From a virus (taxonomy: Duplodnaviria; Heunggongvirae; Uroviricota; Caudoviricetes), in IMG/VR virus record IMGVR_UViG_3300015177_000008, positions 1 to 64,000 of that record: DNA of 64,000 nucleotides. One strand, 5' to 3'. Within the stretch, counting starts at the first letter, position 1; each line of letters opens with the position of its first letter. The notes under the pieces are model-generated. The model was given only the letters and a program-made list of their open reading frames with translations. It searched no databases and was not told the origin of the DNA. The position numbers and the translations under genes are program-made. Shown one piece after another: positions 23,545 through 57,495 of this stretch.

Positions 23545-23641
23545 GTCTGGGCATGTCTTACTAAGCCTGCTTCCGTATATATTTAATAAGTTACTTATTA
23601 TTTATATATACAGAAGCAGGTCTTTAAATAAGCTCCCAGAC
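23545..23641. repeat. ~97-bp composite imperfect palindrome upstream of terS (cos/pac or late-operon regulatory site candidate)
   Basis: Outer arms GGTCTGGG..CCCAGACC, inner arms CCTGCTTCCGTATATAT..ATATATACAGAAGCAGG, central AATAAGT/ACTTATT; shares an exact 22-mer with 57455-57476. Confidence 0.5.
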
Positions 23642-23644
23642 CGA

Positions 23645-23911
23645 TTACATCACCAGTAACTTCGCTTTGGCTCGACCTAAAGTGGTTAACCCAAGAGTCC
23701 GGCGGTGATAGCGATTGTCACTGCGTTGGCGCGTATGCCCTTTCTCCACCAGCCCCTTTTTTATCAGAGCGCGAATTGAGAACTGGATACTTTGCTTTGT
23801 TGTCTTGTACGGCAAAACTTCAAGCAATTCGTCCAGATCAAGTAGATGACCTCGCTCATAACCGAGATTGAGCGTTTTGATGATGTCCTTTTGTTTGTCG
23901 GTTAACGTCAT
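23645..23911 (-). CDS. small winged-helix-like DNA-binding protein (hypothetical)
   Basis: 88 aa, basic, helix-rich; last gene of the ParB operon before the palindrome. Confidence 0.35.
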   Translation of the reverse strand: MTLTDKQKDIIKTLNLGYERGHLLDLDELLEVLPYKTTKQSIQFSIRALIKKGLVEKGHTRQRSDNRYHRRTLGLTTLGRAKAKLLVM

Positions 23912-23920
23912 GGCAAATCC

Positions 23921-24811
23921 TTATGCCGGTAAAGCAATTTCTAACGGTTTATCCAAAGGTTGTTTGTCGAATGCCAGCAGTGGCAGCGTGTCAGGCAGTC
24001 GACGGCCAAAGTCAGGGTTTCGGTACACACCATACAACGGAGACGTAAAGCTCAGGTTGTGAATGTCCTTGAGCAGCTTCACAATGCTGGCCTCGTCCAC
24101 CAGACTGTCGGCAATGTCCTGAATCGTCGTGCCACGATTCCGCCCAGCTTTTGCCAGGGAACTGTTCTTGTGGTAGTCCGCCACCAGATCACGCAGTGCA
24201 CGGCGACGACGAGACTCGCTCATTGCGAACAACTCTTTGACGATCGCCTCGTTATCACCCGGGTCAGAACGGAAATGGCGCTGGAATACACGCAGTGCAC
24301 TTTCATAGCTCTTCGGTCGCTCAGGGCGGATGAACTTAAACCCTGCTTTCATGGCGAAGGGATTGTATTTGCTCATCGAGGACTGGATCTCAATGATTGG
24401 CCGGTCATGCATCCTGCTAACCAGGTTAATCATTCGATAAGAGACGCCTACGCCACGATACTGAGTATCCACAACTGAGCGACTGATCACCGCAAAGTTG
24501 TTATTCACGTACCGACCCCAGTACTGGTTAGCCACGGTGGTATTAGTGGTTGGTTTCAACTTAGGAAACATGCGGTGGCGAGGTGCCAACAGTAGTTTCG
24601 GGTAAGCCATAACCACGACGCCCACCAGACGGTCATCAAGTTCGCAGCGATAGTAAGTTGGCGCGAAAGGTTTGCCGTCTGTTTTGTAGTGAAGCGACTT
24701 AAGAGCGTGCCAGTCCTCTACAGTTCCCTTTGTAACAGTCATTCGCTCCAGAAAGTCCAGATGACGCGGAAACTCTTCAGGGCGGTAGCGTTTAATGATG
24801 ATGTCCGTCAT
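23921..24811 (-). CDS. GNAT-fold acetyl/acyltransferase domain protein with ~120-aa C-terminal extension
   Basis: GNAT motif A (VVDTQYRGVGVSYRMINL) followed by beta5-like NPFAMKAGFKFI; 4-nt overlap with upstream ATPase gene. Confidence 0.5.
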   Translation of the reverse strand: MTDIIIKRYRPEEFPRHLDFLERMTVTKGTVEDWHALKSLHYKTDGKPFAPTYYRCELDDRLVGVVVMAYPKLLLAPRHRMFPKLKPTTNTTVANQYWGRYVNNNFAVISRSVVDTQYRGVGVSYRMINLVSRMHDRPIIEIQSSMSKYNPFAMKAGFKFIRPERPKSYESALRVFQRHFRSDPGDNEAIVKELFAMSESRRRRALRDLVADYHKNSSLAKAGRNRGTTIQDIADSLVDEASIVKLLKDIHNLSFTSPLYGVYRNPDFGRRLPDTLPLLAFDKQPLDKPLEIALPA

Positions 24812-25473
24812 AAATGAACCTCATCATGACTACCATTGTGATATTCCACCTTCACGCGTTCTTTGTAGTGCTTGGTGATCTGCATATCCGGGCGCAGCGC
24901 GTTCTTCAGGTCTTCGTGAGTCGTCGCCACCATTACCGTCGCACCAACCTTTCGAGCGGCACGCTGGAGGTTAGATGCCACAACCTGAGCGGTTACACGG
25001 TCTAGAACAGCACCGAACTCGTCAGCAGCCCACACTTTAGCGCCTGACTCAATCAGTTTGGCAATCTTGAGACGATATTTCTGGCCGTCTGACATTTCAG
25101 AAGGCTTGCGAACAAACAGATATGCATCGTTCAGACCAGCCATAGATAACAACCCAAGCGCATCACTGGTCGTTTTGCCCAACTGATCGATGACGTTAAC
25201 CTCATTATCGAAGGTAAAATCATCGATGGAGGCTACAGAAAGCCCTTCATCCTTCATCTGGCGTTGCAACTCGCGCAGCACAACGGATTTGCCAGAACCG
25301 GATTGGCCGGTGATGTACACCACATCGCCCTGCTTCACTTCCAGCTCCAGATTGTCGTAAAGCGTCCACTCTTTTTCGTCCAGGCCAAGCCCGAACGACT
25401 CAGCGATTTCCAACGTGCGCGTGGTTTTATTTACGCGTGTCTGAAACGATACGTTGATGATGTATTTGCTCAT
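24808..25473 (-). CDS. stand-alone ABC-type ATPase
   Basis: Walker A GQSGSGKS, signature-like MSDGQKYRL, Walker B VWAADEF, H-loop ATTHEDL; no transmembrane domain. Confidence 0.6.
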   Translation of the reverse strand: MSKYIINVSFQTRVNKTTRTLEIAESFGLGLDEKEWTLYDNLELEVKQGDVVYITGQSGSGKSVVLRELQRQMKDEGLSVASIDDFTFDNEVNVIDQLGKTTSDALGLLSMAGLNDAYLFVRKPSEMSDGQKYRLKIAKLIESGAKVWAADEFGAVLDRVTAQVVASNLQRAARKVGATVMVATTHEDLKNALRPDMQITKHYKERVKVEYHNGSHDEVHL

Positions 25474-26138
25474 GCAGCCATCTCCCCGGAAGAGATCTTC
25501 TCCGCATATGCCACAAATGCGTCTACCCCGCTTTCTCCCGTCATTTCTTCCATGTGGGCAAGCAAATCACCAACAACAATGGCAGAGCCAGCAGGGAGCG
25601 TTTTAAAGCCCAATACGTCGACAACACGTACTTCTTCCGCTGCAACTTCACGACTGATCTCGGTGTGTTCATCCTTCTGTCGTTTAGTTTCTTCGCCAAG
25701 ATCGATAACTAGCGAATCGGTGTCCATTTCTTCTGTCATACTGCCAACGAGAACATTCAACTCACGCTCTTCAAAGCCGAAAACCTCGATATCGTCCAGA
25801 ACAAGCGACTCAAGCTCTTTCTGTAGCTTAATTGCATCGTAATCAATGCTGGCAAGTCGGTTATCTTCAAGGCGCTTCGCACGAACCTCGTCATCACTGA
25901 GATCATCGCGAACAATAACCGGTACGCGCTCAAGTCCAGCAAAAATTGCAGCCTCACGGCGGCCGTGGCCAGTAATAATTACGTCGTTCTTATCGACCGT
26001 AATTGGCTGGTCAAATCCGCGCTTTTTAATGGCTGCGGCCAGATCTCGGATCTGCTGTTCATCATGCTTTTTGGCATTCATCTCATAGGGAATAAGATCT
26101 GCCGGGTCGCGATATACGATTTCAAACTTTTTGGTCAT
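25470..26138 (-). CDS. ParB-like nuclease domain (ParB/Srx N-terminal domain) protein
   Basis: ITGHGRREAA motif; start moved to ATG at 26136-26138, which overlaps the stop of the upstream gene (TAATG). Confidence 0.6.
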   Translation of the reverse strand: MTKKFEIVYRDPADLIPYEMNAKKHDEQQIRDLAAAIKKRGFDQPITVDKNDVIITGHGRREAAIFAGLERVPVIVRDDLSDDEVRAKRLEDNRLASIDYDAIKLQKELESLVLDDIEVFGFEERELNVLVGSMTEEMDTDSLVIDLGEETKRQKDEHTEISREVAAEEVRVVDVLGFKTLPAGSAIVVGDLLAHMEEMTGESGVDAFVAYAEKISSGEMAA

Positions 26139-56498: not shown

Positions 56499-56559
56499 AT
56501 AAACTCCTGAATCAAGCGCCGCGCCGATTTTTTTCCTCGCGCGTGCGCACACGCGTGCG

Positions 56560-57060
56560 TGTTAATAATTATTAAAATAAACAAATTACTTCCCAGAACA
56601 GGTTTTTATAAACCTGAACTGAACGAACGAAGTGAGTGAAGTTCACCTCGAACGAAGTGAGAGGTTGTCTTTTCAGGTAATACTCTCCCAGGGAGGTGAG
56701 TATAAAAATCCCTCACCAACCTGGTCGTTTCATAACCTGAAAAGTTATGGCCTAAGTCTACTGCCAGCTTAGACTTGGGAAGTTATGGATGACAGCACCC
56801 CAGAACCGAGATCTTCCCACACTTTATGAAGGGGAGTACTGGATTCAACCTCTCGAAACACCCCAGACTCGACAATCATAAAGTGACCCTTGTCTCCGCT
56901 CACTTTGGTTCCCCCTTCCCCGACACCTAAACGGCACCGGTTCTACGCTGGTAGTGAGCTTTTTTAAACCTGACGCCAGTGACGCTTACCCCCACCCATC
57001 AGGTCGAGTCTCCAGTCTACGACTGGAAACTATCAGATCTTAGCACTTACAATTCATTTT
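56560..57060. other. ORF-free, hairpin-dense region (candidate structured RNA or origin-like region)
   Basis: No ORF of 60 aa or more; multiple stem-loops (CAGGTTT..AAACCTG, GGTGAG..CTCACC, AAGTCTA..TAGACTT), direct repeat GAACGAAGTGAG x2, AT-rich tract. Confidence 0.25.
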
Positions 57061-57082
57061 ATGAATAGTTTGTACTTATCTA

Positions 57083-57313
57083 TCATTTCGATTGATTATT
57101 TTCTCGACCATGTAGTTGAACATTCAAGGCAAACACCTCGTTGATCAACTCACCTAAAAGCTGTTCAACAAGTTCGCGATGCTCCCCAAGATGCAAGCAC
57201 TTAATTGCCCATTCGTACAAGTTGAAAGCCTGCTCGCGGTCTTTCATCATTTCACGAGCCTTAGCCAGAAAATCGCTCTCTACGAGCGCAACAACATTGG
57301 TCGGGTATGGCAT
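57083..57313 (-). CDS. hypothetical 76-aa protein
   Basis: ORF only. Confidence 0.3.
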   Translation of the reverse strand: MPYPTNVVALVESDFLAKAREMMKDREQAFNLYEWAIKCLHLGEHRELVEQLLGELINEVFALNVQLHGRENNQSK

Positions 57314-57393
57314 GTTAGTTTTCCTTAAAGTGGTTCATAAAATCGATTTTAAAGCGTCTGGGAAGGGGTTCTAGTGGATTCTGTAGTGATGTT

Positions 57394-57495
57394 CAGGTCT
57401 GGAGTCTCTGATACAAAACAGCCTGTTTCCGTATATTAATAATTAATATGTAGTTATTTATATATACAGAAGCAGGCTAATTACAGACGCCAGAA
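57394..57495. repeat. second copy of the composite palindrome (shares exact 22-mer TATTTATATATACAGAAGCAGG with 23599-23620)
   Basis: Inner arms AGCCTGTTTCCGTATAT..ATATACAGAAGCAGGCT, outer GGTCTGG; located at the 3' end of the Dam-like gene. Confidence 0.45.

What the first reader, a model, noticed from the sequence alone, without database searches (positions are those of the whole stretch)
23545..57495. Two large composite palindromes sharing an exact 22-bp arm, one directly upstream of terS and one at a frameshifted Dam-like gene
The element at 23545-23641 (outer GGTCTGGG/CCCAGACC arms, inner CCTGCTTC-CGTATATAT...ATATATACAG-AAGCAGG) lies between the ParB operon and terS, where cos/pac sites or late regulatory sites are expected. 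A second copy at about 57394-57495 shares the 22-mer TATTTATATATACAGAAGCAGG but is followed by no terminase, suggesting either two related prophages or remnants, or recombination at this element. The half-sites resemble LexA-box halves (CTGTATAT) but with the wrong spacing for a LexA box.
Basis: seen in the sequence. Interest (0 to 1): 0.55.

Follow-up and report, generated by a model that had tools for sequence, protein, structure and literature searches.

The report
Three-copy regulatory palindrome of SSU5-type phage-plasmids
The two palindromes are real and are two of three copies of a conserved DNA signal that sits in front of the three main gene blocks of SSU5-type phage-plasmids. It most likely binds a regulatory protein, rather than marking a DNA-packaging cut site or a second prophage.

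Summary
The 22-mer is exact at 23599-23620 and 57455-57476, and both sites are 55-bp palindromes (cores 23566-23620 and 57422-57476) with weaker outer TCTGG/CCAGA arms.

The window is a single SSU5-like phage-plasmid, about 99% identical to Escherichia phage Cyrano, not two prophages. Cyrano and SSU5 each carry exactly three copies:
- E1, upstream of terS.
- E2, downstream of the Dam gene and upstream of a 76-aa gene.
- E3, upstream of a 249-aa gene plus helicase and primase. E3 lies outside the window.

About 55 viral contigs carry the element only at these three junctions. It lies 95-118 nt upstream of a co-oriented start codon, and 800 plasmid records match it.

The arms are conserved as sequence, with no compensatory changes. 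In a diverged Klebsiella lineage the arm is replaced by ATATAGGAGCCAGG at all three junctions at once. That points to a trans-acting sequence-specific factor.

Published RNA-seq shows transcription stopping in the gap that holds E3.

The SSU5 record is opened inside the centre of E1, but assemblers also break at these palindromes, so a cos site is not shown. The spacing rules out a LexA box. The binding protein is unknown.

The parts
23544..23642 (-). E1 composite palindrome. Outer arms GGTCTGG (23544-23550) and CCAGACC (23636-23642) enclose the 55-bp core.
   Evidence: The minus-strand fold gives -50.6 kcal/mol, z -9.9.
23566..23620 (-). E1 55-bp core. On the coding (minus) strand it reads CCTGCTTCTGTATAT, then an AT-rich centre carrying TATAAATA and the sub-palindrome TAATAAGT-A-ACTTATTA, then ATATACGGAAGCAGG. 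The boundary of the SSU5 record corresponds to 23584|23583.
57394..57495 (-). E2 composite palindrome. The outer arms are imperfect and offset.
57422..57476 (-). E2 55-bp core. On the minus strand it reads CCTGCTTCTGTATAT, then TATAAATA and a non-palindromic AT-rich centre, then ATATACGGAAACAGG.
23514..23526 (.). First of two AAACAANTTGTTT-type 13-bp palindromes in the leader between E1 and terS. It belongs to a dispersed promoter/operator family.
23489..23501 (.). Second AAACAANTTGTTT site in the leader between E1 and terS. This one is an exact match.
23467..23488 (-). Terminator-like hairpin TAGAGCGCatggacGCGCTCTG followed by TGTGTTTT, directly before the terS ribosome-binding site. The stem covaries in relatives.
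   Evidence: Covariation is seen in L050 and in the L135 and CP027615 lineages.
22816..23448 (-). terS (210 aa, PHROG 867 'DNA binding domain'). It is the first gene downstream of E1, and its ATG lies 117 nt from the core.
23645..23911 (-). 88-aa winged-helix protein (dbp88, matching CYRAN_123). It is the last gene before E1 and a candidate, unproven, binder.
57083..57313 (-). 76-aa gene (PHROG 5343, matching CYRAN_80). It is the first gene downstream of E2, and its ATG lies 108 nt from the core.
57477..58006 (-). Dam-like methyltransferase remnant immediately upstream of E2. It carries an 88-bp deletion and a frameshift.

Best explanation
E1 and E2 are two of three copies of a cis-acting signal that marks the head of each of the three large co-directional gene blocks of SSU5-type phage-plasmids:
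- E1 heads packaging, head, tail and lysis genes.
- E2 heads the block that starts with the 76-aa gene and RNase H.
- E3, outside the window, heads the 249-aa gene, DnaB-type helicase and primase.

The working unit is a 14-15-bp motif, ATATAC(G/A)GAAGCAGG on the coding strand. It is preceded by an AT-rich tract with a TAAATA box and followed by a T-rich tract. In the window's lineage it is paired with an equally conserved inverted copy 40 bp away, centre to centre.

I infer that a sequence-specific factor, encoded by the element or possibly by the host, binds the two arms as a dimer or a pair of dimers across the bendable AT-rich spacer. This would set the state of the junction in two ways. 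It would block transcription running in from the upstream genes, helped by the long RNA hairpin and U-rich tail that the palindrome also encodes. It would also control the weak promoter module that follows.

Shown:
- The copy number, the positions and the conservation pattern.
- The concerted change of the arm between lineages.
- The drop in expression across the gap that holds E3.

Inferred:
- That a protein binds, which protein it is, and whether it represses, activates or counteracts termination.
For: 1. Copy number. There are exactly three copies in Cyrano and in SSU5.
2. Position. All ~55 IMG/VR loci that carry the composite sit in one of the three gene contexts. 800 plasmid records from Klebsiella, Escherichia, Enterobacter, Yersinia, Salmonella and others match it.
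3. Geometry. The core is 53-57 bp. The gap from core to the next co-oriented ATG is 95-117 nt (E1), 100-118 nt (E2) and 104-112 nt (E3). Upstream stop codons lie 23-33 nt before the core.
4. Conservation. Across 41 distinct copies, arm positions 0-13 are almost invariant. Every departure is one-sided and no position shows two Watson-Crick pair types, apart from position 8, where the two sides vary independently. Flanking intergenic DNA has diverged strongly over the same comparisons. This means the arms are conserved as sequence, not as base pairs.
5. Concerted change. In K. pneumoniae plasmid CP027615, ATATAGGAGCCAGG occurs exactly three times in 100 kb, all on the coding strand and at the same three junctions. 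The canonical arm is absent there, and the variant arm is absent from the window, Cyrano and SSU5. At E2 and E3 of that lineage the partner arm is degenerate and cannot form a good hairpin, yet the arm is kept exactly. Separate terminator hairpins that do covary follow it.
6. Expression. In the LF82 lysogen, the co-oriented par genes CYRAN_28-30 read 50-89 units and CYRAN_31 reads 6, against a background of 9.8. In one condition the log2 values fall from 10.4 to 2.6. The stop lies in the 193-bp gap that holds E3 (S1 table of PMC9928086).
7. Promoter context. The downstream flanks of E1 and E2 are degenerate copies of a sigma-70 promoter/operator module that is repeated elsewhere in the window.
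Against: - No binding protein is identified. The recognition helix of the adjacent winged-helix protein is invariant in lineages whose arms differ, so it does not co-vary with the site.
- Half-sites 40 bp apart are unusual for an operator. In Xenorhabdus and Moellerella the AT-rich centre is about 90 nt, so the spacing is not universal.
- No good sigma-70 promoter is predicted next to E1 or E2.
- Gene conversion among the three copies could produce the concerted change without any trans-acting factor.
- Some features point towards an RNA hairpin or terminator role instead. The flanks remain complementary even where the left flank is non-homologous. One-sided transitions favour G-U over C-A on the sense strand by about 30 to 10, although these counts are not phylogenetically independent.
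- The expression drop is documented only for E3 and only at gene resolution.
Confidence: 0.45

Rival explanations
1. The palindromes are only factor-independent, bidirectional transcription terminators or RNA-processing hairpins that separate operons. Under this view the sequence identity of the copies comes from common descent and gene conversion.
For: - The predicted hairpins are very stable: -35 to -50 kcal/mol, z -5.5 to -9.9.
- Each has a G+C-rich stem base followed by a T-rich run (consensus TCTTTT or CTGTTTT) and preceded by an A-rich run.
- They start 23-33 nt after upstream stop codons.
- Expression falls more than 100-fold across the gap that holds E3.
- One-sided changes favour G-U over C-A on the sense strand.
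Against: - There are no compensatory substitutions in the arms. The small hairpin before terS, and the terminators after E2 and E3 in CP027615, do covary over the same evolutionary distances.
- In CP027615 the arm is kept exactly at E2 and E3 even though its partner is degenerate, and a separate classical terminator follows it.
- The consensus terminator scan does not flag any of the three elements.
- A stem of 25-45 bp is atypical for an intrinsic terminator.
Confidence: 0.2
2. E1 is the packaging site (cos), and terminase cuts in its AT-rich centre. E2 and E3 would then be non-cut paralogues.
For: - E1 lies directly upstream of terS in every relative.
- The linear SSU5 record ends with ...ACTTATTA and starts with AATATATACGG..., which is 9-10 nt from the dyad centre of E1.
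- The joined ends reproduce the plasmid-form sequence with no loss or duplication.
Against: - The same core is kept at two other junctions. In some genomes E3 is identical to the window's E1 over all 55 bp.
- An exact circular permutation is also what an arbitrarily opened circular assembly gives.
- Contig L115 starts inside an E3 palindrome.
- The Cyrano paper reports no data on DNA ends.
- The repeats between E1 and terS belong to a genome-wide promoter/operator family, so they are not terS-specific.
- TerL is only about 25% identical to terminases of phages with known packaging modes, so the mode cannot be inferred from it.
- Full-text searches for SSU5 together with cos or cohesive ends found nothing.
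Confidence: 0.13
3. The elements are DNA-level start sites for lytic replication or recombination. One version has an AT-rich unwinding region flanked by inverted initiator sites, as in herpesvirus oriS. Another has cruciforms cut by the phage SbcCD- or RuvC-like nucleases to seed T4-style recombination-dependent replication.
For: - Each element is an AT-rich centre bracketed by conserved inverted sites.
- E3 sits directly upstream of the 249-aa gene, helicase and primase.
- The family encodes homologues of UvsW, UvsY, gp32, RecA, SbcCD, RuvC and RNase H.
- The AT-rich centre varies in length in distant lineages.
Against: - There is no direct evidence.
- The fixed distance to the next start codon and the position just after stop codons are not explained.
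- The 249-aa protein has no recognisable initiator domain.
Confidence: 0.1
4. The motif is a promoter read by a phage-specific transcription factor. A T4-late-like TATAAATA box would be followed by a conserved start region.
For: - An exact TATAAATA points towards the downstream gene in 33 of 42 copies, and away from it in only 10 of 42.
- The arm is directional on the coding strand and changes in concert between lineages.
- TATAAATA also lies next to the arm in the Moellerella and Klebsiella variant copies of E1.
Against: - No phage sigma factor or RNA polymerase is annotated or was found.
- The other four TATAAATA copies on the coding strand of the window share no further context with the palindromes.
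- The equally strong conservation of the inverted arm in the canonical lineage is not explained.
Confidence: 0.08

Closest known systems
Dispersed operators of a global regulator on phage-plasmids and plasmids: P1 C1 operators and RK2 KorB (ParB-family) OB sites. This comparison rests on my own knowledge of those systems.
   Same: The same short sequence is repeated at the heads of several separate operons of one replicon, including the replication-helicase and late functions. Two ParB_N-domain genes lie in the operon that ends at E1.
   Different: There are only three sites. Each is a 55-bp split palindrome with half-sites 40 bp apart, not a 13-17-bp site. It lies about 100 bp upstream of the gene rather than over a recognisable promoter. 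No binding protein is known.
P1 parS: ParB boxes on both sides of a central IHF-bent AT-rich segment. This comparison rests on my own knowledge.
   Same: Inner and outer sequence motifs are arranged on two arms around an AT-rich centre, about 100 bp in all.
   Different: The motifs are unrelated, no IHF consensus was seen, and there are three copies at operon heads rather than one centromere.
Lambda-type cos site (cosN with cosB upstream of the small terminase gene)
   Same: The region upstream of terS has two-fold symmetry, and the boundary of the deposited SSU5 genome lies inside it.
   Different: The core is present three times per genome. There is no evidence that virion DNA ends map there. 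The neighbouring repeats are part of a genome-wide promoter/operator family.
Bidirectional Rho-independent terminators and RNase III hairpins between phage operons
   Same: The position just after stop codons, the stable hairpin, the flanking A-rich and T-rich tracts, and the transcription stop at E3.
   Different: The arms are conserved as sequence with no compensatory change. They are identical in all three copies and switch in concert between lineages. The stem is much longer than usual.
LexA (SOS) box
   Same: The arm contains CTGTATAT. The best structural matches of the adjacent 88-aa protein are LexA DNA-binding domains, but the scores are weak (Foldseek E 0.14, TM 0.55).
   Different: CTGT and ACRG are 33 nt apart instead of 8. 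Many half-sites read CCGT, which breaks the invariant CTGT.

Membership tests
cos site (cohesive-end packaging site) | Virion DNA ends map to the site. | not testable with these tools
   The only relevant observation is that the SSU5 record is opened at core position 37|38. No read data or text about DNA ends was available.
cos site (cohesive-end packaging site) | A unique cleavage sequence in the genome. | tested here: not met
   There are three cores per genome. Some E3 cores are identical to the window's E1 core.
cos site (cohesive-end packaging site) | Located next to the small terminase gene, with terminase-specific binding repeats. | tested here: inconclusive
   Adjacency is met. The repeats AAACAANTTGTTT occur at about 13 sites across the window in promoter modules, so they are not specific to terS.
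LexA box | CTGT-N8-ACAG dyad. | tested here: not met
   The spacing is 33 nt, and the half-site is CCGT in 14 of 41 left arms and 31 of 41 right arms.
Intrinsic (Rho-independent) terminator | G+C-rich hairpin directly followed by a U-tract. | tested here: inconclusive
   The hairpins are strong and are followed by T-rich consensus sequence. The pattern scan flags none of them.
Intrinsic (Rho-independent) terminator | The stem is maintained by compensatory substitutions. | tested here: not met
   There are no double-sided changes in arm positions 0-13 among 41 distinct copies.
Intrinsic (Rho-independent) terminator | Transcript level falls across the site. | tested here: met
   For E3 only. CYRAN_30 reads 54.6 and CYRAN_31 reads 6.2, and log2 values fall from 10.4 to 2.6 in one condition. 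The data are at gene resolution from a published table.
Dispersed operator of a trans-acting regulator | The same sequence recurs at the heads of several operons. | tested here: met
   Three syntenic junctions, 95-118 nt upstream of co-oriented start codons.
Dispersed operator of a trans-acting regulator | All copies change together between lineages. | tested here: met
   ATATAGGAGCCAGG occurs three times in CP027615 and not at all in the window, Cyrano or SSU5. The canonical arm is absent from CP027615.
Dispersed operator of a trans-acting regulator | A cognate DNA-binding protein is identified. | not testable with these tools
   The candidates are the 88-aa winged-helix protein, TerS, and two ParB_N proteins. 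The recognition helix of the 88-aa protein does not co-vary with the arm.
Mobile palindromic repeat (REP/BIME, ERIC, MITE) | Many copies in varied, non-syntenic positions, with target-site duplications. | tested here: not met
   Only three fixed contexts appear among ~55 loci and 800 plasmids. No consistent flanking duplication was seen.
T4-type late promoter | A TATAAATA box oriented towards the gene. | tested here: met
   Exact in 33 of 42 copies towards the gene, against 10 of 42 in the opposite direction.
T4-type late promoter | A gp55-type sigma factor is encoded by the phage. | not tested
   None is annotated in Cyrano or SSU5. I did not run a systematic profile scan of all hypothetical proteins.

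The most novel reading that the evidence does not exclude
The three AT-rich palindromes are sites where the phage machinery acts on the DNA itself. They would be lytic origins, or programmed break sites that seed T4-like recombination-dependent replication. The copy next to terS would also serve as the packaging start, which would explain why the SSU5 genome is opened in its centre. A co-evolving, still unidentified site-specific protein would recognise the arms.
Probability: 0.1. Interest if true: 0.8.

Novelty: new variant of a known kind. Interest (0 to 1): 0.45.

Why it matters
SSU5-type phage-plasmids include Salmonella Typhi pHCM2-like and Yersinia pestis pMT1-like replicons, and about 100-kb plasmids common in clinical Klebsiella and E. 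coli. They are widespread, yet their regulation is essentially unstudied.

A three-copy signal that heads the replication block, a middle block and the structural block gives a concrete handle on how such an element stays silent as a plasmid and how it switches to lytic growth. The lineage-specific arm variants offer a built-in specificity-swap experiment to find the factor.

It also gives two practical cautions. These palindromes break assemblies. The start coordinate of the SSU5 reference genome should not be read as a mapped DNA end.

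Tried and rejected
- Two prophages or a remnant: rejected. The window is collinear with single 108-kb genomes.
- Known RNA family: only sub-threshold microRNA-type hairpin matches in Rfam.
- Host LexA box: rejected on spacing and on CCGT half-sites.
- Mobile palindromic repeat: rejected because there are only three syntenic positions.
- Inferring the packaging mode from TerL: uninformative. Identity is about 25% to T5-like and Jersey-like terminases and 41% to an uncharacterised Vibrio phage.
- Literature on SSU5 DNA ends, cos or palindromes: nothing found in the held library. 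The SSU5 genome note and the P1 genome paper are not held.
- Sequence matches to solved structures for the 88-aa protein, TerS and the 249-aa protein: none significant.
- Sigma-70 promoter scan next to E1, E2 and E3: nothing convincing on the coding strand.
- Other TATAAATA copies in the window as a wider late-promoter set: they share no context with the palindromes.
- Co-variation of the 88-aa protein or TerS with the arm variants: none for the recognition helix of the 88-aa protein, and inconclusive for TerS.
- Searching IMG/VR for the L135 variant arm to link E1 and E2 on one contig: only one short contig came back. The question was settled instead with plasmid CP027615.

Full report

Yes. 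The 22-mer TATTTATATATACAGAAGCAGG is exact at 23599-23620 and 57455-57476, on the same strand. None of 100 shuffles produced a match, even with three mismatches allowed. Each copy is one arm of an inverted repeat. The half-site matches at 23606-23620/23566-23580 and at 57462-57476/57422-57436. Both cores are exactly 55 bp.

At E1 the outer arms GGTCTGG/CCAGACC are exact and symmetric. At E2 they are imperfect and offset. As single strands both regions fold far better than shuffled controls: -50.6 kcal/mol with z -9.9 for E1, and about -35 kcal/mol with z -5.5 for E2.

**2. What is the window?**

It is one SSU5-like phage-plasmid. It is 97-99% identical to Escherichia phages CMS-2020a, Cyrano and PhiR41_1, and about 75% identical to Salmonella phage SSU5 and to Klebsiella relatives. 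Nearly all genes are on the minus strand.

- E1 lies between an 88-aa gene (23645-23911) and terS (22816-23448), which is followed by terL.
- E2 lies directly after the Dam-like gene and 108 nt before a 76-aa gene (57083-57313).

The Dam gene is dead in this genome. An 88-bp deletion between two TTCCTCAATCC repeats removes the NPPY motif. Nothing supports the idea of two prophages.

**3. The two copies belong to a set of three.**

Scanning the whole genomes gives exactly three cores in Cyrano and three in SSU5:

| Genome | E1 | E3 | E2 |
|---|---|---|---|
| Cyrano | 108342..17 | 31159-31211 | 78084-78138 |
| SSU5 | 103263..18 | 33458-33513 | 78304-78360 |

E3 sits between the partition operon and a 249-aa gene followed by a DnaB-type helicase and a primase. 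It lies outside the window.

A scan of viral contigs for one arm returned about 55 loci with the full composite. Every one is in the E1, E2 or E3 gene context. A search of plasmid records with the 107-bp E1 element found 800 records from Klebsiella, Escherichia, Enterobacter, Yersinia, Salmonella, Citrobacter and Cronobacter.

The geometry is constant. The core is 53-57 bp. The gap to the start codon of the next co-oriented gene is 95-117 nt (E1), 100-118 nt (E2) and 104-112 nt (E3). Upstream genes stop 23-33 nt before the core.

**4. How is it conserved?**

I compared 41 distinct copies, aligned from the outer edges of the core. Arm positions 0-13 (CCTGCTTCYGTATA) are almost invariant on both sides. 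Every departure is one-sided. No position has two Watson-Crick pair types except position 8, where the two sides vary independently between C/T and G/A. Neighbouring intergenic DNA has diverged heavily over the same comparisons.

Two controls show what structural conservation looks like over this evolutionary depth. The small hairpin just before terS does show compensatory change: GAGCGC/GCGCTC becomes GAGCAT/ATGTGCTC in L050, and GGCGTC/GATGCC in the Klebsiella variant lineage. The terminators after E2 and E3 in plasmid CP027615 also covary: GGCAC/GTGCC against GGCGC/GCGCC. So the arms are kept as a sequence, not merely as a stem.

**5. The decisive comparison.**

I reached diverged lineages through TerS homologues. 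In K. pneumoniae plasmid CP027615 the 14-mer ATATAGGAGCCAGG occurs exactly three times in 100 kb. All three are on the coding strand and at the same three junctions. The canonical arm is absent from that plasmid, and the variant arm is absent from the window, Cyrano and SSU5.

At E2 and E3 of that lineage the partner arm is only a degenerate CACCCCATTAT or CCCCCCTTTAT, 30 nt away. No good hairpin can form, yet the arm is kept exactly.

Further out, the E1 arm reads GGGAGCAAGG in Xenorhabdus and GGGAACTAGG in Moellerella. In Moellerella the inverted partner is clear (GTTCCCAT). In Xenorhabdus it is degenerate, with only CCTTG kept. In both, the AT-rich centre is about 90 nt.

A motif that is identical at three loci within a genome and switches at all three between lineages is what a site for a trans-acting, co-evolving factor looks like. 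Gene conversion among the copies is the alternative, and I cannot exclude it.

**6. What happens at the junction?**

The supplementary expression table of the LF82 study (PMC9928086) shows what happens in the lysogen. The co-oriented partition genes CYRAN_28-30 are expressed at 50-89 units, and CYRAN_31 is at background (6.2, against a median of 9.8). In one condition log2 values fall from 10.4 to 2.6. Transcription therefore stops in the 193-bp gap, and E3 begins 24 nt after the stop codon of that gap. The genes upstream of E1 and E2 are silent in that data set, so nothing can be read there.

The palindrome also encodes a long hairpin with a G+C-rich base and a T-rich tail. A terminator or insulator effect is therefore plausible, although the pattern scan does not call any of the three.

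**7. What follows the palindrome?**

While looking for other palindromes I found a second repeat family, the 13-bp palindrome AAACAANTTGTTT. It gives 19 hits against 7 expected. On the coding strand most copies sit in a conserved module:

- -35 element TTGnnn
- a spacer of 15-19 nt
- -10 element GATAAT
- taACACCaacaAGA
- the 13-mer
- a ribosome-binding site and ATG

This module precedes small genes at 34-41 kb and 54-55 kb. Two copies of the 13-mer lie between E1 and terS. The right flanks of E1 and E2 are degenerate versions of the same module, with poor -35 and -10 elements. This explains the 'CCAGA' repeats downstream of the core. It also explains part of the constant distance to the start codon: each junction is palindrome, then a weak promoter module, then a leader, then the gene. 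At E1 the leader ends in a terminator-like hairpin only about 20 nt before the terS ATG. Transcription of terS must therefore pass through that hairpin.

**8. Is E1 a cos site?**

For:
- The position next to terS.
- The SSU5 record ends with ...ACTTATTA and starts with AATATATACGG..., between core positions 37 and 38 (window 23584|23583).

Against:
- The joined ends are an exact circular permutation of the plasmid-form sequence. An arbitrarily opened assembly gives the same result.
- A viral contig (L115) begins inside an E3 palindrome, so assemblers break at these elements.
- The Cyrano record starts 1 nt away from the SSU5 start, and its paper reports no analysis of DNA ends.
- The core is conserved at two other junctions, and in some genomes E3 equals E1 over all 55 bp.
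- TerL is too distant from characterised terminases to predict the packaging mode.

I put cos at about 0.13.

**9. Who binds?**

Unknown. The 88-aa protein encoded just before E1 is predicted to be a winged helix (pLDDT 72.5 from a single sequence). Its best structural matches are LexA DNA-binding domains, but the scores are weak (E 0.14, TM 0.55). Its putative recognition helix is invariant in all lineages, including those with different arms. That argues against it as the specificity determinant, unless it reads only the invariant GGA...AGG positions. TerS and the two ParB_N proteins of the same operon remain possible.

A LexA box is excluded by spacing and by the CCGT half-sites.

**10. Verdict.**

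The element is real and strongly conserved. As far as the held literature shows, it is undescribed. It is a three-copy split palindrome that heads the three main gene blocks of SSU5-type phage-plasmids.

The best-supported reading is a dyad-symmetric site for a sequence-specific factor that controls these junctions, with a built-in hairpin that helps to stop incoming transcription (confidence 0.45).

The rival readings, in order:

| Reading | Confidence |
|---|---|
| Pure terminator | 0.20 |
| cos site at E1 | 0.13 |
| Origin or programmed-break site | 0.10 |
| Phage-specific promoter with a TATAAATA box (exact towards the gene in 33 of 42 copies) | 0.08 |

It is a new variant of a known kind of element, and of moderate interest.

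Noticed in passing
window 23489-23526, 34836-34848, 36533-36596, 37487-37499, 37971-37983, 38348-38360, 39530-39542, 40845-40908, 54269-54281, 54998-55010: A family of 13-bp palindromes, AAACAANTTGTTT, gives 19 hits against 7 expected. Most sit in a conserved sigma-70-like module on the coding strand: TTGnnn, 15-19 nt, GATAAT, taACACCaacaAGA, the 13-mer, a ribosome-binding site, ATG. This looks like a dispersed early-promoter/operator set. Two modules (36584/36533 and 40896/40845) have a second 13-mer upstream of the promoter.
   Followed up: partly
window 57773-57812 (minus strand; Dam-like gene 57477-58006): Relative to Cyrano CYRAN_79, the methyltransferase gene lost 88 bp between two 11-bp direct repeats (TTCCTCAATCC). 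The deletion removes the NPPY catalytic motif. There is also a 1-nt difference in an A-run near the 3' end.
   Followed up: yes
window 44811-50085: A 1416-aa inverse-autotransporter adhesin of the intimin/invasin type (IAT_beta 4e-109, Big_1, Invasin_D3) lies next to a MarR-family regulator. I saw no counterpart of this size in the Cyrano annotation, so it may be cargo, but I did not compare the regions directly. The upstream gap carries a good sigma-70-like promoter (TTGCAA...TATAAATA at 49531-49538).
   Followed up: partly
window 31673-32194 (+): A FljA-type 'repressor of phase-1 flagellin' homologue (PF03614, 3e-82) is encoded on the strand opposite to almost all other genes. It is conserved at this position in the Klebsiella, Xenorhabdus and Moellerella relatives.
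   Followed up: partly
window 23921-26836 (minus strand): A conserved five-gene operon ends at E1: two ParB_N-domain proteins, an ABC-type ATPase, a 296-aa protein (PHROG 886) and the 88-aa winged-helix protein. The same order is kept upstream of terS in all lineages examined, as far out as Xenorhabdus and Moellerella. Its function is unknown.
   Followed up: partly
window 23467-23488 (minus strand): A terminator-like hairpin lies about 20 nt before the terS start codon and leaves no room for a promoter after it. The stem covaries in relatives, and the T-run is lost in the Klebsiella variant lineage. This suggests read-through or translational control of the late operon.
   Followed up: partly
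whole window: The heptamer GGTCTGG (the outer arm of E1) occurs 17 times against 4.7 expected. It occurs on both strands and mostly inside genes. This is unexplained.
   Followed up: no
SSU5 JQ965645 positions 1 and 103299; locus L115 position 1: The reference SSU5 genome is opened inside the E1 palindrome, and an unrelated viral contig starts inside an E3 palindrome. These palindromes appear to act as assembly break points, so record starts in this family should not be taken as mapped DNA ends.
   Followed up: partly
L008-L122 (E3 loci), left of the core: The sequence upstream of E3 differs completely among genomes, in at least eight variants, and the neighbouring gene can lie on either strand. 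The 110 nt downstream are conserved. E3 therefore marks a mosaic boundary between the variable plasmid-maintenance region and the replication module.
   Followed up: partly
window 54548-54973 (minus strand): A TerB-domain protein (PF05099, 2e-7) sits behind one of the AAACAANTTGTTT promoter modules. Cyrano annotates the homologue as P1 TciA-like.
   Followed up: no
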